A stretch of DNA of 64,000 nucleotides from the NCBI RefSeq assembly GCF_011391645.1, contig NZ_JAABQC010000002.1:726-64725 (forward strand), given 5' to 3'. Below the pieces are notes generated by a model that was not told where the DNA came from, searched no databases, and saw only the letters and a list, made by a program, of their open reading frames with translations. Numbering within the stretch: position 1 is the stretch's first letter; every line of letters starts with the position of its first letter. The position numbers and the translations under genes were made by a program. The stretch comes from Rhodoferax sp. Its GTDB lineage: Bacteria > Pseudomonadota > Gammaproteobacteria > Burkholderiales > Burkholderiaceae_C. This document shows positions 21,431-33,553 of the stretch, piece after piece.

Positions 21431-24400
21431 TCAAACCAGCACACGCTCAATGCCGCCGTCATTGGCCACCTTGACGTACTCGGGCATCCATTGTTCGCCC
21501 AGAATCTGCCGCGCCATCTCAACCACAATGTAATCGGCTTGCATCAGTCCGTTTTGCAGATCGTCGCCGAAGCGGCTCAAGCCCTGCAGGCAGGCCGGGC
21601 ATGAGGTCAACATCTTGATGTTGTCCTCGGCGCCAACTCCCGGAATCTGGCGCAACTGCGCCTCACCCTTGAGTATCTCTTCTTCCTTGCGAAAACGCAC
21701 CTGGGTTGAGATGTCGGGCCGGTTCAGGGCCAGCGTGCCAGATTCACCGCAGCAGCGCTCGGACTGGATCACATTGTCACCCAGCAAGGCTTTGACGGTC
21801 TTGATCGGCTCCTGCAGCTTCATCGGACTGTGGCACGGATCGTGGAACAAAAACGCCCCGGCGTTGGCCAGCGTGATACCTTTTTCAAGCAGGTATTCAT
21901 GGATGTCGATGATGCGGCAGCCAGGAAAAATCTTGTCAAACTCGTAGCCCTGCAACTGGTCATAACAGGTGCCACAACTCACCACCACTGTCTTGATGTC
22001 CAGGTAATTCAGTGTGTTGGCGACCCGGTGGAAAAGCACCCGGTTGTCGGTGATCATTTTCTCGGCCTTGTCGAACTGGCCGCCGCCACGCTGCGGATAA
22101 CCACAGCACAGGTAACCCGGCGGCAGCACCGTCTGCACCCCGGCGTGCCACAACATGGCTTGCGTGGCCAGTCCGACCTGGCTGAACAGGCGCTCGGAAC
22201 CACAACCGGGAAAATAAAACACCGCCTCGGTCTCGGCCGTGGTGGTTTTGGGGTTGCGGATGATCGGCACGTAGTCCTTGTCTTCAATATCGAGCAAGGC
22301 ACGCGCGGTCTTTTTGGGCAGGCCGCCGGGCAATTTTTTGTTGATGAAGTGAATCACCTGCTCCTTGATGGGCGCGGTGCCCAGCGTGGCCGGTGGTGCT
22401 TTGGTCTGCTTGCGGCCCATCACCTTCAACACATCGGCGGTCATGCGCTGCGCCTTGATGGCCACGTTGACCATCACCGAGCGCGCCAGTTTGATGGTCT
22501 CGGGGTTGGTGGCATTGAGCATGAACATGGCTGCAGCCCCGGCTGGCCTGAAGCTCTTCTTGCCCATTTTGCGCAGCAGATTGCGCATGTTCATCGAAAC
22601 GTCACCGAAATCTATATTGACCGGGCACGGTGACAGGCACTTGTGGCAGACCGTGCAGTGGTCGGCCACGTCTTCAAATTCCTGCCAGTGTTTGATGGAC
22701 ACACCCCGGCGCGTTTGCTCCTCGTACAGAAAGGCTTCCACCAGGAGCGAGGTGGCCAGAATTTTGTTGCGCGGGCTGTACAGCAAATTGGCGCGCGGCA
22801 CATGGGTGGCGCACACCGGCTTGCACTTGCCGCAGCGCAGGCAGTCTTTCACGCTGTCGGCAATGGCGCCGATGTCTGACTGCTGCATGATCAACGACTC
22901 GTGCCCCATCAGGCCAAAGCTGGGGGTGTAGGCGTTGGTCAAATCGGCATAAAGACCTGGCTGCGTCTGATTGTTGCGCAACAGCTTGCCCTTGTTAAAA
23001 CGCCCTTGCGGATCGACCCTGGCCTTGTAGTCGGTGAACGGCTGCAACTCGGCATCGCTCAAAAATTCGAGCTTGGTGATGCCAATGCCGTGTTCACCCG
23101 AGATCACGCCATCCAGGCTGCGGGCCAGCGCCATGATGCGTTTGACCGCGCCATGCGCGGCTTGCAGCATGGCATAGTCGTCGCTGTTGACGGGCAAGTT
23201 GGTGTGCACATTGCCGTCACCGGCATGCATGTGCAACGCCACCCAGACGCGACCCTTGAGCACCCGCTGGTGAATGGCGTTGCATTCTTTCAGGATGGCT
23301 TCAAAGGCAACGCCACCAAAAATTTGCTGCAGTGGCTGGCGAATCTGCGTCTTCCAGCTGGCACGCAGCGAATGGTCCTGCAGTTGGGCAAACAGCGGTT
23401 CGACATCGCGCAGCCAACCTGACCAAAGCGATTTCACCTCGTCAAGCAGCACCAGCGCCTGGGCCACGCGGTCTTCCAGCAGTTCGGCAGCGCTGATCTC
23501 ATTGGCGTCGTCCTGTCGGTCCACGGGGAGATGGCCTTGCCTGAAAAAATCTTGCAAGGCATCACACAGCGCCAGCTTGTTGCGCAGGCTCAGCTCGATG
23601 TTGATGCGCTCGATGCCGTCGGTGTACTCAGCCATGCGTGGCAGCGGGATCACCACGTCCTCGTTGATTTTGAAGGCGTTGGTATGTTTGCTGATGGCCG
23701 CCGTGCGCTTGCGATCAAGCCAGAATTTCTTGCGCGCTTCAGGGCTGATGGCAATAAAGCCCTCACCGCTGCGCGAGTTGGCGATGCGAACCACTTCGCT
23801 GGTGACGCGGGCCACCTCGTCGGCATCGTTGCCCGCAATATCGCCAAACAGTACCATTTTGGGCACGCCGCCACTGCTCAGGGCTGCGCCGCGTTTGCTC
23901 TTGGTAGCATATCCCACCGCCTTCAGGTAACGGTCATCCAGGTGCTCCAGCCCGGCCAGCAGCACGCCAGAGCGCTTTTGCTCGGCGAACATGAAGTCCT
24001 TGATCTCGACAATGCTCGGCACCGCGTCCCTGGCATTGCCAAAAAACTCCAGGCATACGGTGCGTGTGTGCTTGGGCATACGGTGCACCACCCAGCGCGC
24101 GCTGGTGATCAGGCCGTCACAGCCTTCTTTTTGAATGCCCGGCAGTCCGCTCAAAAACTTGTCGGTCACATCCTTGCCCAGGCCTTCCTTGCGAAAGCTT
24201 TTGCCGGGAATGTCCAGCTGTTCTTTGCGAATGGGTGTTTTGCCGTCAGCCTTGAAATACTGCAGCTCAAAGCTGGCCACCTCTGCATCATGGATCTTGC
24301 CCATGTTGTGATTGATGCGGGTCACTTCCAGCCATTCGGCCTGCGGTGTCACCATGCGCCAGCTGGCCAAATTGTCCAGCGAGGTGCCCCAAAGTACGGC

Positions 24401-25327
24401 TTTTTTTCCACCGGCATTCATGGCAATGTTGCCGCCAATACAGGATGCATCGGCCGAGGTGGGATCCACCGCGAACACAAACCCGGCGCGCTCGGCGGCA
24501 TGAGCCACGCGGCTGGTGACCACACCGGCTTCAGTCCAGACCGTGCCGACTTCATGGTCAAGGCCCGGCAGCACGCGCATTTCGACCTCGGTCATGGCTT
24601 CCAGCTTTTCGGTGTTGATGACCACACTCTTCCAAGTGAGCGGAATCGCGCCGCCGGTGTAACCCGTGCCGCCGCCGCGCGGGATGATGGTCAGGTCCAG
24701 TTCAATACATCCCTTCACCAGATTCGCCATCTCGGCCTCGGAGTCGGGCGTCAGCACCACAAACGGGTACTCCACGCGCCAGTCGGTGGCATCCGTCACA
24801 TGGCTGACGCGGCTCAGACCGTCAAATTTGATGTTGTCCTTGGCGGTCAGCCTGACCAGCACTTTTTGGGACTGGCGGCGCAGCGTGGCAGTTTCCACAA
24901 AATGGGCATCGAAGGCTTGCACGGCCCGACGCGCCACATCGAGCAATTGACCGACCAGCGCATCGCGCTCGGGATCGTCGGCGGGCGTGCGGCGCTTTTC
25001 TATTTCACCCAGACGGTGCTGCAGGGCTTGCACCAGCAGCACCCGGCGTTTCGGGTTGTCGAGCAGGTCGTCCTGCAAATACGGGTTGCGCTGCACCACC
25101 CAGATGTCACCCAGCACCTCGTACAACATGCGGGCTGATCGGCCCGTGCGGCGTTCATCGCGCAGTTTGTTGAGCCAGCCCCAGGCTGGTGCGCCGAGCA
25201 GTCGAATGACGATTTCGCGGTCAGAAAAAGAGGTGTAGTTGTAGGGGATTTCGCGGATGCGTTCGGGCTCATGCGGCGTCATGGCGCCAGCAGGCAATAG
25301 AGTCTTGAGCGGTGTGGGGGCGTTCAT
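21431..25327 (-). CDS. Large FAD-binding and 4Fe-4S oxidoreductase (DUF3683/DUF3400-type)
   Basis: [59 protein letters not shown] and CCG repeats. Confidence 0.85.
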
Positions 25328-25507
25328 CGGAAAAGTTTGTTAGCAGCCATGGCGGGCGATTGCGCACTGGCACAAAGGCACTTTCAAGCCGAGACGGCGA
25401 TGGTACCGCAGCGCTGCATTCCCCTTGCTGGGGACATGGAAACTGTTCAAAAGGCACCAAATTCATGCATCAACCGCTAAACAGGCATTGTTATTGCTTG
25501 GACTGCA

Positions 25508-27340
25508 ATGACCAACTCACTTATATCTATCGTGGCTATTTCCCCAATTCAAGATTACCTTCAAACCTTGATCGCCCGTTTCAGCGGGTTGAGCGAGGGT
25601 GAGGTGGCTGATTACATTCCCGAACTCAAGCTGGCAAACCCCGACTGGTTCGGGATTTGTATCGCCACGCAAGACGGTCATATCTACGAAGTGGGCGACA
25701 GCCAGCAGCACTTCACCATTCAATCAGTCTCCAAACCCCTGACTTACGGGCGGGCACTGGAGCAGCATGGCGAAGCAGCCGTGCTTAAAAAAATTGGCAT
25801 CGAACCTTCGGGCGATGCTTTTAATGCCATCAGCCTTCATCCGACAAGCGGCACACCGCTGAATCCCTTGATCAACGCAGGCGCCATTGCCGCTTGCAGC
25901 CTGATTCCCGGTGACAGCATGCAGGAAAAATCAGCCGTCATTCTGGAGACCTTTTCCCGCTACGCCGGCCGTGCGCTTGACATCGACCACACGGTCTATC
26001 AGTCAGAAAGCGACACCGGCCACCGCAACCGCGCCATCGGCTGGATGCTGCGCAACTTCTCCGTGATCGAATGCGACCCCACGGCAACGTTGGAAGCGTA
26101 TTTTCAGCAATGCGCCATACGTGTCACCTGCCGTGATCTGGCCATCATGGGCGCAACGCTTGCCAATGGGGGCCTCAACCCGATCACCGGCAAGCGGGCG
26201 ATCCCTGAAAAATATGTTGCCAATGTGCTTTCGGTGATGGCCACCTGCGGCATGTACGATGCTTCGGGAGAATGGCTTTACGACACCGGCATGCCAGCCA
26301 AGAGCGGTGTGGGCGGTGGCATCATGGCCGTGCTGCCGGGTCGACTGGGGATTGCCGTGTTTTCACCCAGGCTCGATCAGCAAGGCAACAGTGTTCGCGG
26401 ACTTGCCACGTGCCAGGCTTTGGCTGACGATCTGGAACTGCACATGTTTGGTGCATCGCAGCCGGCCATTCCCGCCATTCGCAGAGCCACCTCGCGCAAA
26501 TCCGTCAAGTCCAACCTGCGCCGCACCCAGGCGGCCAATGACTACCTCTTGCGTGTTGGTAAGAAGCTGCGCGTGTACCAACTGCATGGCGCACTGACTT
26601 TTGCCTCCATTGAGCCAGTTGCCCGAACCATGGCAGACGAATCTGCCCAGACTGAGGTTTTTATCGTGAACCTCAGACTGGTCCATCGCATTGACCGCGC
26701 CAGCGTGAATATTCTGGCTGAGCTGCGCAGAGATTTGATCGGTACTGGCAAGTTGTTGTTTTTTACCGAATCAGGAAACTTCTGGCAACCATTAATAGAC
26801 GCTGGCGTTGATCGGGAGGCCTTCTTTGCCGACGACGACTTTGCGTTGGAGTGTGGCGAGAACCATTTGCTTGGCGACCGCTTTCCGAACCTGGCCTGGG
26901 GCAGCGAGACCCCGTTGGAAAAATGCGACCTCTTGCTTGAGCTCAACCCGGATGAACTGGCCTTGATGGATCGGCTTTTGTTTTATCGAAATTATCTTAA
27001 AGGGCAAAACATCATCACCGCTGGCCAAGCCTCCAACGAACTGTTTGTTTTGACCAAGGGATCGGCCATGGTCAGCATGGCAACCCAGGACGGCATTGCC
27101 CGCTTTGACGCATTTTCTTCAGGTGCAGCCTTTGGCGAAGTCGCTTTTCTGGACCGGTCTCCGCGCTCGGCGAACGTGACCGCGCTTAGTCCGGTGACGT
27201 GCCGGATACTTACCCGCGAAGCGTTTGACCAGCTTGACACACTAGCGCCAGCCATCAAGATCCACTTGCTGAGCAACCTGGCAGGCAGGTTGACCACCAT
27301 GCTGCGCCATAACGGGCGGGAACTGGCATCTCTCAAGTAG
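25508..27340 (+). CDS. glsA: Glutaminase A fused to STAS and cNMP-binding domains
   Basis: FTIQSVSKP (SxxK), EPSG, NPLINAGAI, YFQQC, CGMYD, PAKSGVGGG; then a STAS-like segment; then FGEVAFLDRSPRSANV (phosphate-binding cassette). Confidence 0.9.
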   Translation: MTNSLISIVAISPIQDYLQTLIARFSGLSEGEVADYIPELKLANPDWFGICIATQDGHIYEVGDSQQHFTIQSVSKPLTYGRALEQHGEAAVLKKIGIEPSGDAFNAISLHPTSGTPLNPLINAGAIAACSLIPGDSMQEKSAVILETFSRYAGRALDIDHTVYQSESDTGHRNRAIGWMLRNFSVIECDPTATLEAYFQQCAIRVTCRDLAIMGATLANGGLNPITGKRAIPEKYVANVLSVMATCGMYDASGEWLYDTGMPAKSGVGGGIMAVLPGRLGIAVFSPRLDQQGNSVRGLATCQALADDLELHMFGASQPAIPAIRRATSRKSVKSNLRRTQAANDYLLRVGKKLRVYQLHGALTFASIEPVARTMADESAQTEVFIVNLRLVHRIDRASVNILAELRRDLIGTGKLLFFTESGNFWQPLIDAGVDREAFFADDDFALECGENHLLGDRFPNLAWGSETPLEKCDLLLELNPDELALMDRLLFYRNYLKGQNIITAGQASNELFVLTKGSAMVSMATQDGIARFDAFSSGAAFGEVAFLDRSPRSANVTALSPVTCRILTREAFDQLDTLAPAIKIHLLSNLAGRLTTMLRHNGRELASLK

Positions 27341-27415
27341 CCAGGTTCGTGTTCAAATACGTCCACTCTTTACAGTGTAAAAACTGTTTTTGTGTAGACC
27401 GAGGAGCACTTAAGC

Positions 27416-28786
27416 GTGGCAATTGCAACAATCAACCGCATCATTATTTTGTTTGATGGTGCATTTCGGTCCTTGGCGGTCGATGTGCCGATGGTGAAAG
27501 TGGAGCAACTGGCCATGCTGATCCAGACTGCCATGAGTGGGAAAAAGCGGGCTTTTCACACCACCAAGCATGTTTTGCATTTGAGCCGGGGGATGAAGCC
27601 GGAACAGGTGCTGGCTGCGCTGTTTCATGATGTGGTGTATTTCCAACTCGATGGCGGCTTGTCGGGACAGACCGCCACGCTGCTTGACGGCATCACACGA
27701 TCAGAAAATGACGCCCTGCTGCTTGGTGAAATCAAGCCCGAAGACAAAGCGGTTGCGCTGTGTGCCGATCTTTTTGGCTTCGTGCCAGGTCAAACCTTGC
27801 CACTGCAAAGGGGAATGAATGAGTTTCTCAGTGCGGCCTTGGCAGCCCGTCTTCTTCAGCACTATCTGAGCGATGCGCAACTGATCGCCGTATTTGCCTG
27901 TATCGAAATGACGATCCCTTTCCGGGCACCGGACGAGAGCGGACGGACAGCCGCCCAGTTGCTTGCACAGCGTGTGTTGGCCTTTTGCCACAAACCAGGG
28001 GGCTTTCCTTCACTTTCGGAACAGGACGCGGCACGATTTGTTCGGACGGTTGTCACGGATGCCGTCGTTTTTGCCAACCGGGATCTTTCCGGATTCACCG
28101 ACCCCAACCCTGGACGGTGCTTGTCAAACACGCTTTTGCTGATTGAGGAGTCAATGCCTCATTATGCGGCGCTGAGTTTCAGTTCGATTCAGGAGTACCG
28201 GGACGCCCTGCTGCGCATGGATGCCTTCTTGAGCAAGCTTAACCCGAAGCTTGTCTGCCAGAGTTACGACAACCTGCCAGATGCAAATACCCGGCTGGAA
28301 ATGGACGCCGCAGTGGCTAAGAACATCGCGTTTTCATGCGATTACCTAGCCGCCATACTGGCCTCGATGGCCGTCGTCGAGGCATTGGCACTGAGCACCG
28401 GGTCTGACTGCCCAATCGGCATGTTTCTCGGCGACAAGTCGCAGTCCTTGAACGAACCAGACCAGATCGAAGAACTTCTGCCGGTACCGCCTGCCGGGCA
28501 GCCGGTCAACGCCGAGTTGCTGCAACTTTTTGGAAATGACCACTTGCTGGATTCGATCAATGACCTGACGGCATCGCCTCTGACGGAATTCGTCTACCGG
28601 TTTCTGGGTCAACCCGGAACCCAGCGTGCGCTTGGGCAGGCCAAACAGATGTTTGACGGGCATTTGTCGGCGCGCGAATTCCTGAAGTCCCTGGATCGCA
28701 ACATGGTCCTCGCCATCGTTCATGCGTGTGCGCAAATTGCCGTGTCCCGGCGGGGCGCGCTCCTGGAACTCGAACAAAATCTATAG
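27416..28786 (+). CDS. Uncharacterised protein with an HD-like metal-binding motif
   Basis: GAGGAG RBS before a GTG start; RAFHTTKH...LAALFHDVVY...ANRDLSGF. The CDS is well supported; the function is inferred. Confidence 0.7.
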   Translation: MAIATINRIIILFDGAFRSLAVDVPMVKVEQLAMLIQTAMSGKKRAFHTTKHVLHLSRGMKPEQVLAALFHDVVYFQLDGGLSGQTATLLDGITRSENDALLLGEIKPEDKAVALCADLFGFVPGQTLPLQRGMNEFLSAALAARLLQHYLSDAQLIAVFACIEMTIPFRAPDESGRTAAQLLAQRVLAFCHKPGGFPSLSEQDAARFVRTVVTDAVVFANRDLSGFTDPNPGRCLSNTLLLIEESMPHYAALSFSSIQEYRDALLRMDAFLSKLNPKLVCQSYDNLPDANTRLEMDAAVAKNIAFSCDYLAAILASMAVVEALALSTGSDCPIGMFLGDKSQSLNEPDQIEELLPVPPAGQPVNAELLQLFGNDHLLDSINDLTASPLTEFVYRFLGQPGTQRALGQAKQMFDGHLSAREFLKSLDRNMVLAIVHACAQIAVSRRGALLELEQNL

Positions 28787-28845
28787 ATTAGTTCCGTCTT
28801 ATTTAATAGCGTATTTTGGGTGGGGCTGATCGCTAATTTGTAAGT

Positions 28846-28878
28846 TTATTTTGCAATAACGTAAAAATTGTATATAAA
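28846..28878 (+). promoter_or_regulatory. Putative sigma70 promoter with overlapping inverted repeat upstream of the FecR-domain gene
   Basis: TTGCAA (28851-56), 16 nt spacer, TATAAA (28873-78); TTATT-N4-AATAA overlaps the -35; AT-rich intergenic region; AAGGAG RBS downstream. Confidence 0.45.
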
Positions 28879-28904
28879 CGTGTTTTTTCAAGGAGTAACT
28901 CAAA

Positions 28905-29378
28905 ATGACACATAGCATTCGGCAATTTCTAACCGCCAGCGCGATTCTGATGCTGGCTTCGGCTGCAGCCCTGTCCCAAGCCCACGCCGAGGTCGTCGGA
29001 TCCGTCAAGACTGTCACCGGTGAAGCCTGGGTGATCACAGCCCAGCAGCGCGTCAAGGCACAGGTTGGCACTCCCGTGAATTTGGGCAGTCAGCTCAAGA
29101 CCGCCAAGGCATCCAGCATGGGCGTGACGTTCAAAGACAACACGCTGATGTCCTTCGGGCCCGACACCGAAATGACGGTTGACGAGTTTCTTTTTGCCCC
29201 GACCCAGGGGCAGCTCAAATTGGGCACCCGGTTGGACAAGGGCAGCCTGAATTACGTCTCCGGCCTGATCGCCAAGCTCAAGCCCGAAGCGGTTACTGTC
29301 AAGACACCCACCGGCACCATTGGTGTGCGTGGCACCCAGTTCCTGCTCAATGTGGATGAGCCTGCCAAAGTCAACTGA
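28905..29378 (+). CDS. Periplasmic FecR-domain protein (no anti-sigma N-terminus)
   Basis: Sec signal ending AHA; FKDNTLMSFGPDT and VKTPTGTIGVRGTQF motifs. Confidence 0.85.
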   Translation: MTHSIRQFLTASAILMLASAAALSQAHAEVVGSVKTVTGEAWVITAQQRVKAQVGTPVNLGSQLKTAKASSMGVTFKDNTLMSFGPDTEMTVDEFLFAPTQGQLKLGTRLDKGSLNYVSGLIAKLKPEAVTVKTPTGTIGVRGTQFLLNVDEPAKVN

Positions 29379-29414
29379 TCCATCAGAATAAGAGCAACAC
29401 TGACAGAGGCCCGC

Positions 29415-31370
29415 ATGACTACAAAAACGAAATTGACGGCATTGACGCTGGCCCTGCTGGGCTGCTGGGGCGCCCAGGCCCAGGCCATGCCAGAGGCACT
29501 GGTCAAAGCTGCCCGCCAGGCGGTTCTGACCAATCCTGAAGTGCAGGCGCGCTGGAACGGTTTCAAGGCCGCCGGGCAAGAACAGTCGACTGCGCGCGGT
29601 GGCTATTTTCCCCAGCTTGATTTGAGAGCATCGGTGGGCAGTGAAAACCGCACCACCCCCGCCACCGATTACGGCCGCTACGACATCAACGGCGCCCAGC
29701 TCACACTCAACCAGATGCTGTTTGACGGCCTGTTCACACCCAGCGAAGTCAAACGTCTGGGCTATGCCAAGCTCGTTCGTTACTATGAGCTGGCAGAAAT
29801 TTCCGAAACCGCCGCCCTGGAAGCGGTGCGCGCTTATGTTGACGTGGCGCGATTCCAGGAACAGGTGGAAGCCGCCACGCAAAACTATGCCGAGCACAAA
29901 CAATCTGCCCAGTTGGTTGAGGAGCGCAACAAGGGCGGCGTTGGACGTCGCGCCGACGTCGAGCAGGCCAGTGGTCGCCTGGCGCAGGCCGAATCCAGCT
30001 TGCTGGCCGAACTGACCAATCTGCACGACGCCAGCGCGCGCTACCTGCGTGTGGTCGGCGAAAAACCGCCCGGCAAGTTGCCAAGCCTGCCCGAATCACT
30101 CAGTCTGGGCCGCATGCCAGCCAATACCGAAGCACTGTTGCAGCAAGGTTTGTCGGGCAGCCCGACTCTGAATGCAGCGCTTGAAAACACACGCGCCTAC
30201 CAGCAAGCCATTGCCACCCGGCAAGCGGCTTTCATGCCGCGTGTTGATCTGCGTGGCTACGTCAGCCAGGACGAAAATCTCTCGGGGGATTTGGGCACGA
30301 CCGATGTCAAAGGGGTTGAACTGGTTCTCAACTACAACCTTTACCGTGGTGGCGCGGACAGCGCCAGGAAGCGCCAGGCAGAAGACCAGCGGGCCCAGGC
30401 ACGCGACCTGCAGGAGAAAGCCTGCCGCGACGTGCGCCAGACGCTGACCATCGCCTACAGTGACGTGCAAAACCTGAGCGAGCAACAGCGCTACCTGAAT
30501 CAATACCGCCTGGCAACTGAAAAATCGCGCGAAGCCTATCGCCAGCAGTTCGACATCGGTCAACGCACCCTGCTCGATGTGCTGGACAGTCAAAAAGAAT
30601 ACTACGAAGCCAGCCGCTCTTACATCAATGCCCGTCATGGCGAGGTGCTGGCGCAGGCGCGCACGCTGGCCGGCATGGGTCAACTGGTGGCGGCGATGGG
30701 TGTCCAGCGCCCCGATATGCCAAGCGCCGCCGATGCAGGACAGGACCGGGACCACACCGACCCGGCTGATTTATGCCCGCTGGACACCAGCGTGGTGGAC
30801 ACCGTGGATGCCATCAAGGCCAGATTTGTGACCAAGGGCCCAGGCTCCTACGTGGTGCTGATCCCGAGTCCGGACGGCAGTATCGGACGGGTGACGGTGC
30901 AGGGCAAGCAGGGCGAGCAGGTTCTGAACAAGGCCGGACAAGCCGTCTCTCTGGATGGCATCACCCCAGTGCCGATCGACGTGAGCGAGCAAAAAGTGAA
31001 GGCGGATTTTGGCTCGGCGATCGCTGCGCGTCCACCCGTGCCTGAACAGTTTGTGTTTTATTTCAAGTTGGGGAGCACGCAACTGACCAAAGAATCCCAG
31101 GCGCTGCTACCTAGCGTGCTGGAAAAAGTGCGCGCGCGCCAGACCCTGGACATTTGGTTGATCGGCCACACGGACACCACAGGCGACGCCAAACGCAACG
31201 ATGCGCTGGGACTCAAACGGGCGCAGGTGCTGGCCAGGAATTTTGAGAAACTCGGGATCAAGGACCTGAATGTGACTGTCGAGTCCTACGGCGAGCGAAG
31301 CCCCCTGGTGGCTACTCCTGACAACACGCCCGAACAGCGAAACCGCCGCGCCGAAGCAACTTTGCGCTAG
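29415..31370 (+). CDS. TolC-family outer membrane protein fused to a C-terminal OmpA-like peptidoglycan-binding domain
   Basis: TolC-like part: AVLTNPEV, GGYFPQLDL, QMLFDG, QFDIGQRTLLDVLD. OmpA part: IGHTDTTG, LGLKRA, SYGE, NRRAE. Confidence 0.85.
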   Translation: MTTKTKLTALTLALLGCWGAQAQAMPEALVKAARQAVLTNPEVQARWNGFKAAGQEQSTARGGYFPQLDLRASVGSENRTTPATDYGRYDINGAQLTLNQMLFDGLFTPSEVKRLGYAKLVRYYELAEISETAALEAVRAYVDVARFQEQVEAATQNYAEHKQSAQLVEERNKGGVGRRADVEQASGRLAQAESSLLAELTNLHDASARYLRVVGEKPPGKLPSLPESLSLGRMPANTEALLQQGLSGSPTLNAALENTRAYQQAIATRQAAFMPRVDLRGYVSQDENLSGDLGTTDVKGVELVLNYNLYRGGADSARKRQAEDQRAQARDLQEKACRDVRQTLTIAYSDVQNLSEQQRYLNQYRLATEKSREAYRQQFDIGQRTLLDVLDSQKEYYEASRSYINARHGEVLAQARTLAGMGQLVAAMGVQRPDMPSAADAGQDRDHTDPADLCPLDTSVVDTVDAIKARFVTKGPGSYVVLIPSPDGSIGRVTVQGKQGEQVLNKAGQAVSLDGITPVPIDVSEQKVKADFGSAIAARPPVPEQFVFYFKLGSTQLTKESQALLPSVLEKVRARQTLDIWLIGHTDTTGDAKRNDALGLKRAQVLARNFEKLGIKDLNVTVESYGERSPLVATPDNTPEQRNRRAEATLR

Positions 31371-31396
31371 GCTGGCTTCAGGCCTGCGGGCGGCGA

Positions 31397-33553
31397 CTAC
31401 TTCTCGGTCATCACGATCAGGTTGCCTGTCTGATTTTCTCGCAGCCGCTGCAGGTGCAATTTGACCAGCGGATCCATCGGCCGCTCCAGGGCCAGTTGCT
31501 CAAAGGCGGCGCGCGCCGCCAATGGGTCCTGAGTCAACAAGGCATAGGCTGCAGCATATTGCGGATCATCCGGCGACGCGCCCGGGATCTCCAAACCTTC
31601 GTGGATGGGTTGAAACACCATCAGCGGCTTCGACTTGCCTTTGAGCACCAGTTGACCCACAGGGCGGGTCACCACCCCGGTGCAGCCCGACAAGGTTGCC
31701 TCGGAGACACACACCCGCGTGCCCAGATGCTTGTTGACTGCTTCAAGGCGCGATGCGGTGTTGACCGGGTCTCCGAGCGCACGGTAATCAAAGATGGTTG
31801 AACCACCAAAATTACCGACAATGACTTCACCCGTGTGAATTCCGATGCGGGTATGGCCAAAAGGGATGCCTTTGGCTTGCAAGTCACCTGCATACTTGGT
31901 GGCAAAGCGCTGCATGGCCAACGCGCAGTTCAGCGCCCGCTGCCGGTGATCGGGCTGGTGCACTGGCGCCGAAAACATGATGGCCACCGCGTCGCCGACA
32001 ATCCGGTCCAGCGTGCCGTTGAATTGAAATGCAATGGCGATCATTTCATCCAGATAGGCATTCAGCAGCGCGACCGCGTCCGCTGGATCGATCTTTTCCA
32101 TCAGGCTGGTGAAACCCGCCAGATCGGTAAAGATAAAGCTGCATTCCTGACGTTTGCCGCCAAGTTCAAGTTCTGCCGGATGGTCCACGATGTAGGACAC
32201 CAGATTGGGAGACACATAACGTGAAAAGGCCTGTTTGACAAAGCGCTGGCTTCGTTCGCTGGAAAAATGGTGCATCAAACTTGACAACAGGAAGGCAGCA
32301 AAAATACCCAACGCGGGCGTGACCGGGTCCAGCAGCAACTGGTAATCGGTAAAGGCCACCCAGCCACCCCAGATAATGCCCGCAATCACCCCCAGCGTGA
32401 GTAACGCGGAGGCGACTGCTCCGGTCACCAGCCCCAGAATTGCCAGCGTCATGCTGCCGATGATGATGGTCAATGCCTCAATCGAATTGGCCCAGGCCGG
32501 CCGTTGCAGGAAACTGTCGGTCAGCACCTGCTCCATCATCTGAGCGTGCGCCTCGACCCCCGGCATGACGCCGCCCAGCGGGCTGAAGCGCAAGTCCATC
32601 AGCCCCTGCGCCGAGGTTCCGACCAGCATCAGATTGCCCTGCAACTCGGCATCGGGGATTTCTCCCGCCAAAATTCTCCAGGCCGCAATGGTGCGCTCCT
32701 TGACCGGCCTGGTGTAATACACCCACGATTCGCCTGCGGCGGTAGTGGGCACCGTGAATTGGCCGATCTTCACCTCTGTCATGCCAACGCCCGGGGTTTC
32801 GGAGGTGCGCACCATGTAGTTTTGCGCGCCCTGACCAACCCGCAACACCTCGGCCGCCAGCGAAGGCACCAGGGTGTCGCCCAGGCGCAGCAGCAACGGC
32901 ACACGGCGCACCACGCCGTCAGTGTCCGGAACAAAGGTCATGACACCATTGCCTGCAGCCGCTGCGCTCAGCAGGGGCAAGGACGGCACGGCACTGGCAA
33001 AAGCATGGGCAAAGGGCAGCGCCGGCTCGCCCATCATCACGTAACGGTACTTCTCGTCGGCCAGGGTCGCCCCCCTGGCTCCCTGGCGCTCCAGGGCATA
33101 ACCAAGCACCACGCCGCCGGGCTTCAGGGCAGCGGCAAGCAGCTCATCGTGATCAGGCAGGCTGGCAACGCTGCGCTGCGCTCTGGCAGGCAGGTTCCAA
33201 ATGCCCAGCATGGCTTTGGGCGAGGTGCGGTCCGGCTCGGCAAACAGCACGTCGAAGCCGACAGCCGCCACCTCGGCCTGGCGCAGTCGCTCCACCAGTT
33301 CGGCAATCCGGCTGCGCGGCCAGGGCCATTGGCCGATTCGGGTGAGGCTTTCCTCATCGATATCGATGATCCGCACCGGCGCCGGCTGGTAGACCCGCGG
33401 ACGCGCCTGCTGGTACTGGTCAAAGACCGAATTACGCAGGGTTTGCAATAGCGGCGGGTCGATCAACAGCAGCGCCGCGCCGATGAACACTGCCAGCGTT
33501 GGCACCAGCATGTTCAAGCTCAGGGTAAACCAGCGGCGCAGCTTTTTGATCAT
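31397..33553 (-). CDS. CHASE2-domain membrane-bound class III nucleotide cyclase
   Basis: TM; CHASE2 (IDIDEESL..GQWPWPR, GVEAHAQ); 3 TMs; cyclase domain (FTDLAGFT, GDAV, RIGIHTG, VNTASRLE). Confidence 0.9.
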   Translation of the reverse strand: MIKKLRRWFTLSLNMLVPTLAVFIGAALLLIDPPLLQTLRNSVFDQYQQARPRVYQPAPVRIIDIDEESLTRIGQWPWPRSRIAELVERLRQAEVAAVGFDVLFAEPDRTSPKAMLGIWNLPARAQRSVASLPDHDELLAAALKPGGVVLGYALERQGARGATLADEKYRYVMMGEPALPFAHAFASAVPSLPLLSAAAAGNGVMTFVPDTDGVVRRVPLLLRLGDTLVPSLAAEVLRVGQGAQNYMVRTSETPGVGMTEVKIGQFTVPTTAAGESWVYYTRPVKERTIAAWRILAGEIPDAELQGNLMLVGTSAQGLMDLRFSPLGGVMPGVEAHAQMMEQVLTDSFLQRPAWANSIEALTIIIGSMTLAILGLVTGAVASALLTLGVIAGIIWGGWVAFTDYQLLLDPVTPALGIFAAFLLSSLMHHFSSERSQRFVKQAFSRYVSPNLVSYIVDHPAELELGGKRQECSFIFTDLAGFTSLMEKIDPADAVALLNAYLDEMIAIAFQFNGTLDRIVGDAVAIMFSAPVHQPDHRQRALNCALAMQRFATKYAGDLQAKGIPFGHTRIGIHTGEVIVGNFGGSTIFDYRALGDPVNTASRLEAVNKHLGTRVCVSEATLSGCTGVVTRPVGQLVLKGKSKPLMVFQPIHEGLEIPGASPDDPQYAAAYALLTQDPLAARAAFEQLALERPMDPLVKLHLQRLRENQTGNLIVMTEK

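What the first reader, a model, noticed from the sequence alone, without database searches (positions are those of the whole stretch)
25508..27340. Glutaminase with appended STAS and intact cNMP-binding domains
Seen: the complete glutaminase catalytic set (QSVSK, NAGAI, E..GHRN, YFQQC, GMYD) is followed by a STAS-like domain and a C-terminal cNMP domain with a canonical cassette (FGEVAFLDRSPRSA). The STAS segment reads DRAS where DSSG/DTSG is usual, so the canonical phospho-Ser is absent. Known: this architecture occurs in some bacteria, but I know of no demonstrated cNMP regulation. Inference: an allosteric enzyme linking a second messenger to the Gln/Glu balance, ammonia release or acid resistance.
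Basis: partly seen in the sequence, partly recalled or inferred. Interest (0 to 1): 0.65.

Follow-up and report, generated by a model that had tools for sequence, protein, structure and literature searches.

The report
Glutaminase with cyclic-nucleotide sensor tail
This gene encodes the genome's only detected glutaminase, fused to a STAS domain and an intact cyclic-nucleotide-binding domain; the fusion is common in bacteria but has never been tested, and it probably lets a second messenger switch glutamine breakdown directly.

Summary
ORF 25508..27340 (+) encodes 610 aa: a complete glutaminase A core, a STAS domain, and a canonical cNMP-binding (CNB) domain.

Across 78 homologues (43-84% identity, several phyla) all catalytic residues are invariant. 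The phosphate-binding cassette is also essentially invariant (Gly543, Arg553 and Ala555 in 78/78; Glu544 in 75/78; Ser554 in 74/78). This argues for real cyclic-nucleotide binding.

The STAS domain is the SulP/SLC26 transporter type, not the phospho-switch type. The canonical Ser position is Ala398 and varies across the family.

STAS plus CNB form one cassette. It is also found on a SulP transporter in the same genome (29% identity over 265 aa).

The glutaminase+STAS part matches the solved Micrococcus luteus glutaminase Mglu.

Class III nucleotide cyclases lie within 10 kb of this gene in 12 of 48 genomes, against 1.8 expected. They come in several unrelated arrangements. Here the neighbour is a CHASE2 receptor cyclase 4 kb downstream.

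Best reading: a cNMP-gated allosteric glutaminase. The ligand identity and the sign of regulation are unknown.

The architecture is very common (more than 560 matching stretches in species-representative genomes) and is annotated simply as 'glutaminase A'. I found no experimental study of it. Interest is moderate: a new variant of known kinds, and directly testable.

The parts
25508..27340 (+). Complete ORF, 610 aa: glutaminase - STAS - cNMP-binding fusion. It is the only glutaminase gene detected in the 2.74-Mb, 93%-complete assembly.
25598..26449 (+). Glutaminase catalytic domain (residues 31-314). Ser73-x-x-Lys76, Asn123, Glu167, Asn174, Tyr250, Ser266 and Val268 are invariant in 78 homologues; Tyr198 is conserved in 77 of 78.
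   Evidence: Pfam E 4e-120. TIGR03814 scores 360 bits against a 255-bit cut-off. Alignment to YbaS and Mglu. Conservation. Foldseek rmsd about 1.6 A to human GLS and E. coli YbaS.
26477..26872 (+). STAS domain (residues about 324-455), SulP/SLC26 transporter type. It has no conserved phospho-Ser (DRAS 396-399). It ends in a conserved helix, D444-x-A446-x-E-x-x-E451-x-x-L-L.
26948..27334 (+). Cyclic-nucleotide-binding domain (residues about 481-609): alpha-A helix, eight-stranded barrel, alpha-B helix and a long CRP-like alpha-C helix.
   Evidence: Pfam 55.9 bits. Profile against PKA/PKG/CRP/MloK1/SthK, E 1e-20 to 1e-63. Model pLDDT 92.7. Foldseek top hits are CRP-family cAMP receptors, 141 columns at 2.3-2.6 A.
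27131..27172 (+). Phosphate-binding cassette FGEVAFLDRSPRSA (residues 542-555). It aligns residue for residue with FGELALMYNTPRAA of PKA RII-beta.
   Evidence: alignment. Gly543 78/78, Glu544 75/78, Arg553 78/78, Ser554 74/78, Ala555 78/78.
31397..33553 (-). CHASE2 receptor-type class III nucleotide cyclase, the candidate source of the ligand. It is the stronger of only two PF00211 hits in the genome.
   Evidence: The orthologous cyclase lies beside the glutaminase in L002, L017, L072, L073, L074 and L076.
28905..31370 (+). FecR-domain protein (28905..29378) and a TolC-like outer-membrane protein fused to an OmpA domain (29415..31370). These two genes travel with the CHASE2 cyclase.
   Evidence: They co-occur with the cyclase in L002, L017, L072, L073, L074 and L076.
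27416..28786 (+). 456-aa protein of an undescribed family with an invariant H...H...HD...D pattern, 75 nt downstream of the glutaminase. It is a possible phosphohydrolase. Its membership in the circuit is speculative.
   Evidence: No Pfam, NCBIfam or PDB match. More than 900 homologues with no Pfam domain. Invariant H48, H52, H71, D72 and D110.

Best explanation
The gene encodes a cytoplasmic, catalytically competent glutaminase A (glutamine + water gives glutamate + ammonium). A C-terminal two-domain cassette controls its activity allosterically.

Proposed mechanism:
1. A CRP-like cyclic-nucleotide-binding domain captures a 3',5'-cyclic nucleotide through its canonical Gly-Glu...Arg-Ser-Ala cassette. 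The ligand is most probably cAMP; cGMP or another cNMP is not excluded.
2. Binding repositions the B and C helices.
3. The change passes through the conserved D-x-A-x-E-x-x-E helix into a transporter-type STAS domain.
4. The STAS domain packs against the catalytic domain, as it does in Micrococcus luteus Mglu.

By analogy with other CNB-gated enzymes, the ligand-free tail probably holds the enzyme in a less active state and the nucleotide relieves this.

In this organism the likely source of the messenger is the CHASE2 envelope-sensing class III cyclase 4 kb downstream.

Shown here: domain identities, residue conservation, fold, cassette homology and cyclase linkage.
Inferred: ligand binding, ligand identity, direction of regulation, and the physiological trigger.
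For: 1. The catalytic machinery is intact and invariant in 78 homologues. It is the only glutaminase in the genome.

2. The CNB domain is canonical.
- Pfam 55.9 bits.
- The cassette aligns position for position with PKA RII-beta.
- Gly543, Arg553 and Ala555 are 78/78 and Glu544 is 75/78 at 43-84% overall identity across Burkholderiales, Verrucomicrobiota, Cyanobacteria, Chloroflexota and others.
- The structural glycines G506, G518 and G539 are invariant.

3. Models are confident: pLDDT 89.5 with pTM 0.85 for the full length, and 92.7 for the tail. The tail's best structural matches are cAMP-bound CRP, GlxR and Clr, including the C-helix.

4. Glutaminase+STAS aligns over 412-461 columns with Mglu (3IF5, 3IH8, 3AGD).

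5. STAS+CNB is one homologous unit shared with a SulP-STAS-cNMP transporter of the same genome: 29% identity over 265 aa, E 6e-18, with the linker helix conserved.

6. A class III cyclase lies within about 10 kb in 12 of 48 loci, against 1.76 expected from each genome's cyclase count. P(>=6 independent cases) = 0.007. The arrangements are unrelated to one another:
- A CHASE2 cyclase 75 nt upstream on the same strand in the isolate Parasulfuritortus cantonensis.
- A GAF-cyclase 43 nt downstream on the same strand.
- A cyclase-STAND gene divergently adjacent.
- One family genome whose only cyclase lies 7 kb away.
Against: - There is no biochemical evidence for binding or regulation, and no publication was found.
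- Most loci (about 75%) have no cyclase within 10 kb.
- Genome-level co-occurrence with cyclases (48/48) is uninformative, because 55 of 61 genomes of this family have a cyclase anyway.
- The neighbouring cyclase has Arg/Arg at the two base-selecting positions, so its product, and hence the ligand, cannot be predicted.
- The Arg-Ser-Ala cassette does not discriminate cAMP from cGMP.
- I could not inspect model coordinates, so inter-domain contacts are unverified. The STAS orientation differs from Mglu (rmsd about 11 A over both domains).
- CNB-fold domains in some proteins (FNR, CooA, CprK, PrfA) bind other ligands.
Confidence: 0.66

Rival explanations
1. The C-terminal domain has the CNB fold but does not sense a cyclic nucleotide. 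It would bind another small molecule, or serve only as a CRP-like dimerisation module that sets the enzyme's quaternary structure.
For: Some CRP/FNR-fold domains bind non-nucleotide ligands (established knowledge). The best fold matches include the CRP dimerisation C-helix. Most loci lack a nearby cyclase.
Against: The residues that contact the ribose-phosphate are essentially invariant across phyla (Gly543, Arg553 and Ala555 in 78/78; Glu544 in 75/78). Non-nucleotide CNB-fold sensors typically lose these residues. Cyclase genes are enriched about 7-fold nearby.
Confidence: 0.12
2. The nucleotide binds, but the output is not catalytic rate. The STAS-CNB tail would instead recruit the enzyme to a partner or a site, for example a SulP/SLC26-type transporter or an ammonium/glutamate transporter, or it would control filament or tetramer assembly.
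For: STAS domains often act through protein-protein contacts. The same cassette sits on a SulP transporter in this genome. Mammalian glutaminase is controlled through oligomerisation (established knowledge).
Against: No conserved partner gene was seen across the 80 loci. The fusion to the catalytic domain is maintained with a short, conserved junction, which favours intramolecular control.
Confidence: 0.12
3. The STAS domain is the main regulatory element. It would act by phosphorylation-dependent partner switching (SpoIIAA/RsbV type) or by binding GTP/GDP (Rv1739c type), and the CNB domain would be secondary.
For: STAS is present in all homologues. The two-domain Mglu-type enzymes have STAS without CNB. 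Rv1739c STAS is among the profile hits.
Against: The phospho-Ser position is Ala398 here and is Ser in only 21 of 78 homologues. No anti-sigma kinase or PP2C phosphatase gene lies in the neighbourhood. The closest solved STAS relatives are transporter STAS domains, not SpoIIAA.
Confidence: 0.06

Closest known systems
Micrococcus luteus K-3 salt-tolerant glutaminase Mglu (PDB 3IF5, 3IH8, 3IHA, 3AGD)
   Same: It is the best sequence match in the PDB (E 5e-89 over residues 13-323). The structural alignment extends over 412-461 columns, covering the catalytic domain plus the STAS-like C-terminal domain. The Mglu C-domain is also hit by the STAS-segment profile.
   Different: Mglu ends after the STAS-like domain (456 aa) and has no CNB domain. 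The NCBIfam model for the two-domain type (NF002134) scores 446 bits here, below its 557-bit cut-off. The relative domain orientation differs from the model (rmsd about 11 A).
Single-domain glutaminases: E. coli YbaS/GlsA1 (1U60), B. subtilis YbgJ (1MKI), and the human GLS/GAC catalytic domain
   Same: Same fold (rmsd about 1.6 A, TM 0.91-0.94 to the target) and the same catalytic residues. TIGR03814 'glutaminase A' scores above its cut-off.
   Different: The bacterial enzymes have no regulatory tail. The human enzymes are controlled by phosphate and oligomerisation through unrelated N- and C-terminal extensions.
Mycobacterial cAMP-gated protein lysine acetyltransferase (Mt-Pat / MSMEG_5458; PDB 4AVA, 4ORF)
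   Same: It is a bacterial enzyme whose activity is switched directly by a fused CNB domain. It appears among sequence and fold matches of the tail. It is the best functional analogy.
   Different: The catalytic domain is unrelated (GNAT). Its CNB domain is N-terminal and there is no STAS domain. That its regulation is by relief of autoinhibition comes from my own knowledge and was not tested here.
SulP/SLC26 anion transporters with cytoplasmic STAS tails (BicA STAS 6KI2, V. cholerae 3MGL, Rv1739c 2KLN), and the SulP-STAS-cNMP protein of this genome (G000 contig 21; L104:1017-3212)
   Same: These are the closest solved relatives of the STAS segment. The STAS-linker-CNB cassette is homologous as a whole to the tail of the genome's own SulP protein.
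   Different: The cassette is attached to a membrane transporter instead of a soluble hydrolase. I know of no functional study of the CNB-bearing SulP proteins either.
CRP/GlxR/Clr cAMP receptor proteins
   Same: They are the best fold matches of the CNB domain, including the long C-helix. They share the same Arg-Ser-Ala cassette type.
   Different: There is no helix-turn-helix domain here. The output is an enzyme, not DNA binding.
Sinorhizobium meliloti NsrA - CyaK/CyaD1/CyaD2 - Clr pathway (PMC7529298)
   Same: An outer-membrane-associated receptor protein and cognate inner-membrane adenylate cyclases transduce an external signal (PMC7529298, abstract). Here, similarly, a FecR protein and an outer-membrane TolC/OmpA protein accompany a CHASE2 cyclase.
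   Different: The effector there is a transcription factor (Clr), whereas here it is proposed to be a metabolic enzyme. That the rhizobial cyclases carry CHASE2 domains is from my memory and was not checked. NsrA is a different outer-membrane protein.

Membership tests
Glutaminase (Pfam PF04960; NCBIfam TIGR03814 glutaminase A) | Profile score above the curated cut-off | tested here: met
   PF04960 scores 400.6 bits against 27. TIGR03814 scores 360.4 bits against 255.4.
Glutaminase (Pfam PF04960; NCBIfam TIGR03814 glutaminase A) | Ser-x-x-Lys nucleophile pair plus the Asn/Glu/Asn/Tyr/Tyr substrate-binding set | tested here: met
   S73, K76, N123, E167, N174, Y198 and Y250 align with the YbaS and Mglu residues. 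All are invariant in 78 homologues except Y198, which is 77/78.
Glutaminase (Pfam PF04960; NCBIfam TIGR03814 glutaminase A) | Beta-lactamase-like glutaminase fold | tested here: met
   Foldseek to human GLS and YbaS: rmsd 1.5-1.8 A over about 305 columns, target TM 0.91-0.94.
Glutaminase (Pfam PF04960; NCBIfam TIGR03814 glutaminase A) | Glutamine-hydrolysing activity | not testable with these tools
   Needs an enzyme assay.
STAS domain (Pfam PF01740) | Profile match | tested here: met
   The query alone is below the cut-off (18.2 against 22.6 bits). However, 37 of 41 homologues match (best E 8e-11), and the family profile hits solved STAS domains at E 8e-8 to 1e-3.
STAS domain (Pfam PF01740) | Alternating beta-alpha STAS fold | tested here: met
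   The model has strands 354-363, 384-395 and 416-420 alternating with helices 341-353, 365-378, 397-412, 423-431 and 443-455. The region co-aligns with the Mglu C-domain.
SpoIIAA/RsbV-type phospho-switch STAS (anti-sigma-factor antagonists) | Conserved phosphorylatable Ser/Thr in the D-S-S-G loop | tested here: not met
   The position is Ala398 (alignment to IDASG). The column is V31/S21/A15/C5 of 78.
SpoIIAA/RsbV-type phospho-switch STAS (anti-sigma-factor antagonists) | Cognate kinase or phosphatase genes nearby | tested here: not met
   None is among the annotated neighbours from 17 to 35 kb of the window.
Cyclic-nucleotide-binding domain (Pfam PF00027) | Profile score above the curated cut-off | tested here: met
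   55.9 bits against 27.5. All 41 of 41 homologues match.
Cyclic-nucleotide-binding domain (Pfam PF00027) | Phosphate-binding cassette: Gly-Glu for the ribose 2'-OH and Arg-[Ser/Thr/Ala]-Ala for the phosphate | tested here: met
   FGEVAFLDRSPRSA aligns with the PKA RII-beta cassette. Conservation is 74-78 of 78.
Cyclic-nucleotide-binding domain (Pfam PF00027) | Eight-stranded beta-barrel flanked by A, B and C helices | tested here: met
   Secondary structure of the model. Foldseek to CRP, GlxR and PKA CNB domains at 1.7-3 A.
Cyclic-nucleotide-binding domain (Pfam PF00027) | Measured binding of cAMP or cGMP | not testable with these tools
   Needs ITC, DSF or equilibrium dialysis.
Mglu-type two-domain glutaminase (NCBIfam NF002134) | Equivalog score above the cut-off; architecture ends after STAS | tested here: not met
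   445.9 bits against a 557-bit cut-off, covering residues 12-421 only. The protein continues for 190 more residues.

The most novel reading that the evidence does not exclude
The 8-kb block 25508..33553 would be a self-contained second-messenger pathway that controls central nitrogen metabolism post-translationally. Its parts would be:
- an envelope sensor (FecR protein, TolC/OmpA outer-membrane protein and the CHASE2 domain);
- a class III cyclase with an unusual Arg/Arg base-selecting pair, whose product may not be plain cAMP or cGMP;
- an undescribed HD-like hydrolase that removes the messenger;
- the cell's only detected glutaminase as the direct enzymatic effector.

The same STAS-CNB cassette on a SulP transporter would couple anion uptake to the same signal.
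Probability: 0.2. Interest if true: 0.7.

Novelty: new variant of a known kind. Interest (0 to 1): 0.45.

Why it matters
Direct control of a metabolic enzyme by a fused cyclic-nucleotide sensor has been shown for only a few bacterial proteins, such as the mycobacterial cAMP-gated acetyltransferase.

A cNMP-gated glutaminase would connect envelope or environmental sensing to the glutamine/glutamate/ammonium node without transcription. It occurs in hundreds of species of soil and freshwater Burkholderiales and Verrucomicrobiota. In many bacteria cyclases and CNB proteins are numerous but their targets are unknown, so this would give cAMP/cGMP signalling a concrete metabolic output there.

It would also define STAS-CNB as a portable regulatory cassette shared with SLC26/SulP transporters.

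The hypothesis is cheap to test with one recombinant protein.

Tried and rejected
- **Literature.** Searches for glutaminase combined with STAS, cNMP, cyclic-nucleotide-binding, CHASE2 or CNB found nothing relevant.
- **Genome-level co-occurrence.** All 48 genomes tested have a class III cyclase. I rejected this as evidence because 55 of 61 genomes of the same family also have one.
- **Synteny with the window's own neighbours.** The DUF3683 oxidase, UbiE and HrcA genes are shared only with two close Rhodoferax MAGs, so they carry no functional information.
- **Leader RNA or riboswitch.** No Rfam match in 25200..29000 at E <= 1.
- **Promoter and terminator scans.** No more sites than in shuffled sequence, and nothing usable.
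- **456-aa neighbour.** PDB, NCBIfam and Pfam searches found nothing.
- **Foldseek on the tail model.** It returned only CNB hits in the top 50, so it could not confirm STAS on its own. A STAS-only profile solved this.
- **Phospho-switch STAS reading.** Rejected on residue conservation.
- **Acid-resistance role.** No gad-type context; left as unsupported.
- **cAMP versus cGMP from the cassette sequence.** Arg-Ser-Ala is not decisive.
Full report
**1. Observation**

The window holds an uninterrupted ORF at 25508..27340 (+) of 610 aa. Only nine open codons lie upstream of the ATG.
- QSVSK 72-76
- NAGAI 123-127
- ESDTGHRN 167-174
- YFQQC 198-202
- GMYD 248-251
- DRAS 396-399
- FGEVAFLDRSPRSA 542-555

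Pfam gives Glutaminase (31-314, E 4e-120), cNMP_binding (494-576, 55.9 bits against a 27.5-bit cut-off) and a sub-threshold STAS (354-411, 18.2 against 22.6 bits). NCBIfam TIGR03814 'glutaminase A' scores above its cut-off.

**2. The catalytic domain**

The best solved relatives are the Micrococcus luteus salt-tolerant glutaminase Mglu (E 5e-89), E. coli YbaS and human GLS.

I aligned 78 full-length homologues taken from species-representative genomes, at 43-84% identity. The Ser-x-x-Lys pair and the Asn/Glu/Asn/Tyr/Tyr substrate-binding residues are invariant; the one exception is Tyr198, which is conserved in 77 of 78.

The AlphaFold model is confident (pLDDT 89.5, pTM 0.85). It superposes on human GLS and YbaS at about 1.6 A. 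A Pfam glutaminase search of the whole 2.74-Mb assembly (93% complete) finds this gene only.

**3. The STAS domain**

The query alone is marginal, but the family-level evidence is clear:
- 37 of 41 homologues match Pfam STAS, best E 8e-11.
- A profile of just this segment finds solved STAS domains. First come those of SulP/SLC26 transporters (BicA 6KI2 at 8e-8, V. cholerae 3MGL at 1e-7, Rv1739c 2KLN). SpoIIAA and the C-domain of Mglu follow.
- The whole-protein fold search aligns 412-461 columns with Mglu, that is, the catalytic domain plus STAS.

Aligned to the 'IDASG' loop of a STAS domain from the same genome, the canonical Ser corresponds to Ala398. That column is Val/Ser/Ala/Cys across the family.

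No anti-sigma kinase or phosphatase gene is nearby. The domain is therefore a transporter-type STAS, not a phospho-switch STAS.

**4. The cNMP-binding domain**

- The cassette aligns residue for residue with FGELALMYNTPRAA of PKA RII-beta.
- Across the 78 homologues, Gly543, Arg553 and Ala555 are invariant, Glu544 is 75/78 and Ser554 is 74/78.
- The structural glycines of the barrel are invariant too.
- A separate model of residues 320-610 has pLDDT 92.7. Its best structural matches are cAMP receptor proteins (M. tuberculosis CRP, GlxR, Clr, T. thermophilus CAP) over 141 columns at 1.7-2.6 A, including the long C-helix.

The ligand-contact residues are conserved as strictly as the active site, across several phyla. 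This is the strongest argument that the domain really binds a cyclic nucleotide.

The Arg-Ser-Ala type is shared with CRP and MloK1 (my own knowledge). It does not settle cAMP against cGMP.

**5. STAS and CNB form one cassette**

A search of 61 genomes of the same family showed that residues about 324-602 also match the C-termini of 740-910-aa proteins. One of these is in the window's own genome. That protein is Sulfate_transp + STAS + cNMP_binding. It aligns with the glutaminase tail continuously over 265 residues (29% identity, E 6e-18).

The alignment runs through the linker helix, where D-x-D-x-A-x-E-x-x-E-x-x-L-L is conserved in both proteins. D444, A446 and E451 of this helix are invariant among the glutaminases. 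I take this helix to be the relay element between the two domains. That is inference.

**6. Distribution**

The architecture is very common:
- More than 7,900 similar-length proteins match at E <= 1e-3, and the top 120 all carry Glutaminase + cNMP_binding. Sources name them only 'glutaminase' or 'glutaminase A'.
- At least 567 stretches in species-representative genomes encode a relative. The 80 retained loci come mainly from Burkholderiales and Verrucomicrobiota, with some Cyanobacteria, Chloroflexota and others.

Within the window's own family it is patchy. The three-domain form occurs in this genome and two of 60 other genera. About eleven others have a plain glutaminase of about 310 aa. 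The nearest relatives are Rhodoferax MAGs at 80-84% identity.

**7. Link to nucleotide cyclases**

In the window, 4 kb downstream, lie three genes:
- a FecR-domain protein;
- a TolC-like protein fused to OmpA;
- a CHASE2 class III cyclase. It is the stronger of only two PF00211 hits in the genome.

The same trio lies beside the glutaminase orthologue in two Rhodoferax MAGs. It also does so in Thiobacillaceae, Accumulibacter, Dechloromonas and Parasulfuritortus, where the glutaminases are only 43-44% identical.

An iterated HMM search of all 80 loci found a cyclase within 10 kb in further, unrelated arrangements:
- a CHASE2 cyclase in two further loci, one of them from Verrucomicrobiota (Pedosphaera);
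- a GAF-cyclase starting 43 nt after the glutaminase stop on the same strand;
- a cyclase-STAND ATPase gene divergently adjacent.

In the isolate Parasulfuritortus cantonensis LSR1 the CHASE2 cyclase ends 75 nt before the glutaminase start, on the same strand.

Using the cyclase count and size of each of 48 genomes, 1.76 loci would be expected to have a cyclase that close. Twelve do. Even if these are collapsed to six independent events, P = 0.007. One further family genome has its single cyclase 7 kb from its three-domain glutaminase.

The linkage is real but holds for a minority of loci. Genome-wide co-occurrence (48/48) is not informative, because 90% of family genomes have a cyclase anyway.

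**8. Mechanism**

Best explanation (confidence 0.66): a cNMP-gated allosteric glutaminase.

- Shown: intact catalysis residues, a canonical and conserved CNB, a transporter-type STAS, cassette homology and cyclase linkage.
- Inferred: nucleotide binding repositions the CNB helices. The conserved linker helix and STAS pass this on to the catalytic domain. The nucleotide activates, by analogy with PKA, Epac and the mycobacterial cAMP-gated acetyltransferase. The local CHASE2 cyclase supplies the ligand.

My rough odds:
- Ligand: cAMP about 50%, cGMP about 25%, other about 25%.
- Direction: activation rather than inhibition, about 60%.

The neighbouring cyclase has Arg at both base-selecting positions (GTLDRIVGD and FDYRALGDPVN). 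Its product therefore cannot be read from sequence.

**9. Rivals**

- A non-nucleotide or purely structural CNB-fold domain (0.12). The invariant cassette argues against it.
- Nucleotide-controlled localisation or assembly rather than catalytic rate (0.12).
- STAS-centred regulation by phosphorylation or GTP (0.06). The variable Ser column and the missing kinase genes argue against it.

**10. Comparison with known systems and novelty**

- The first two domains are Mglu-like, but the protein fails the NF002134 equivalog cut-off and carries 190 extra residues.
- The best functional analogy is the CNB-gated mycobacterial acetyltransferase, which appears among the sequence and fold hits.
- The upstream sensing module resembles the S. 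meliloti pathway in logic. There, an outer-membrane-associated receptor works with inner-membrane adenylate cyclases (PMC7529298).

I found no experimental work on a cNMP-regulated glutaminase in eight literature searches. The held library lacks most subscription journals, so this is absence of evidence only.

The architecture is common and already visible in databases, and this scan has flagged it many times. I therefore rate it a new variant of known kinds with moderate interest (0.45). It is not surprising to a specialist in domain architectures, but it is a clean, cheap and untested hypothesis about second-messenger control of nitrogen metabolism.

Noticed in passing
window 31397..33553 (-); also L072, L073, L076: The CHASE2 class III cyclase has Arg at both base-selecting positions (GTLDRIVGD and FDYRALGDPVN) instead of Lys/Asp-Thr or Glu/Cys-Gly. 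The metal-binding Asp residues and the Asn/Arg transition-state residues are intact. Both Arg positions were seen in the CHASE2 cyclases of L073 and L076; in L072 only the first (GTLDRIVGD) was matched.
   Followed up: partly
window 27416..28786 (+): A 456-aa protein lies 75 nt downstream of the glutaminase. It has no Pfam, NCBIfam or PDB match. It has more than 900 homologues, all 'hypothetical', with invariant H48, H52, H71-D72 and D110, an HD-like metal-site pattern. It co-occurs with the glutaminase in the Rhodoferax-like clade: L002 and L017, plus matching contig lengths among the hits. It is a possible cNMP phosphodiesterase, but this is untested.
   Followed up: partly
window 28905..31370 (+): A small FecR-domain protein is followed by a TolC-family outer-membrane protein (TIGR01844, above its cut-off) fused to a C-terminal OmpA/Pal peptidoglycan-binding domain. 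No efflux pump partner genes are nearby. Both genes travel with the CHASE2 cyclase in distant Betaproteobacteria.
   Followed up: partly
G000 contig 21, 38016..40211 (L104:1017-3212): The same genome encodes a SulP-family transporter with a C-terminal STAS + cNMP-binding cassette homologous to the glutaminase tail. Similar 740-910-aa proteins occur in 8 of the 60 other family genomes sampled.
   Followed up: partly
L017:10001-11562 and L016:10001-11810: In one Rhodoferax MAG the orthologous glutaminase lacks residues about 376-459 (most of STAS) and changes frame. In another betaproteobacterial MAG it changes frame near residue 480. These are either pseudogenes or assembly errors.
   Followed up: no
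window 21431..25327 (-): A 1,298-aa fusion protein (DUF3683 + FAD-linked oxidase + 4Fe-4S + CCG + DUF3400) is divergently transcribed 180 nt upstream of the glutaminase. It is 95% identical in the two Rhodoferax MAGs, but it is not linked to the glutaminase elsewhere.
   Followed up: no
L078:10001-10327: In a Pedosphaera MAG a second CNB-like segment (30% identical to residues 498-606) lies in the same frame just upstream of the glutaminase gene. It may be an N-terminal extra CNB domain or a separate small gene.
   Followed up: no
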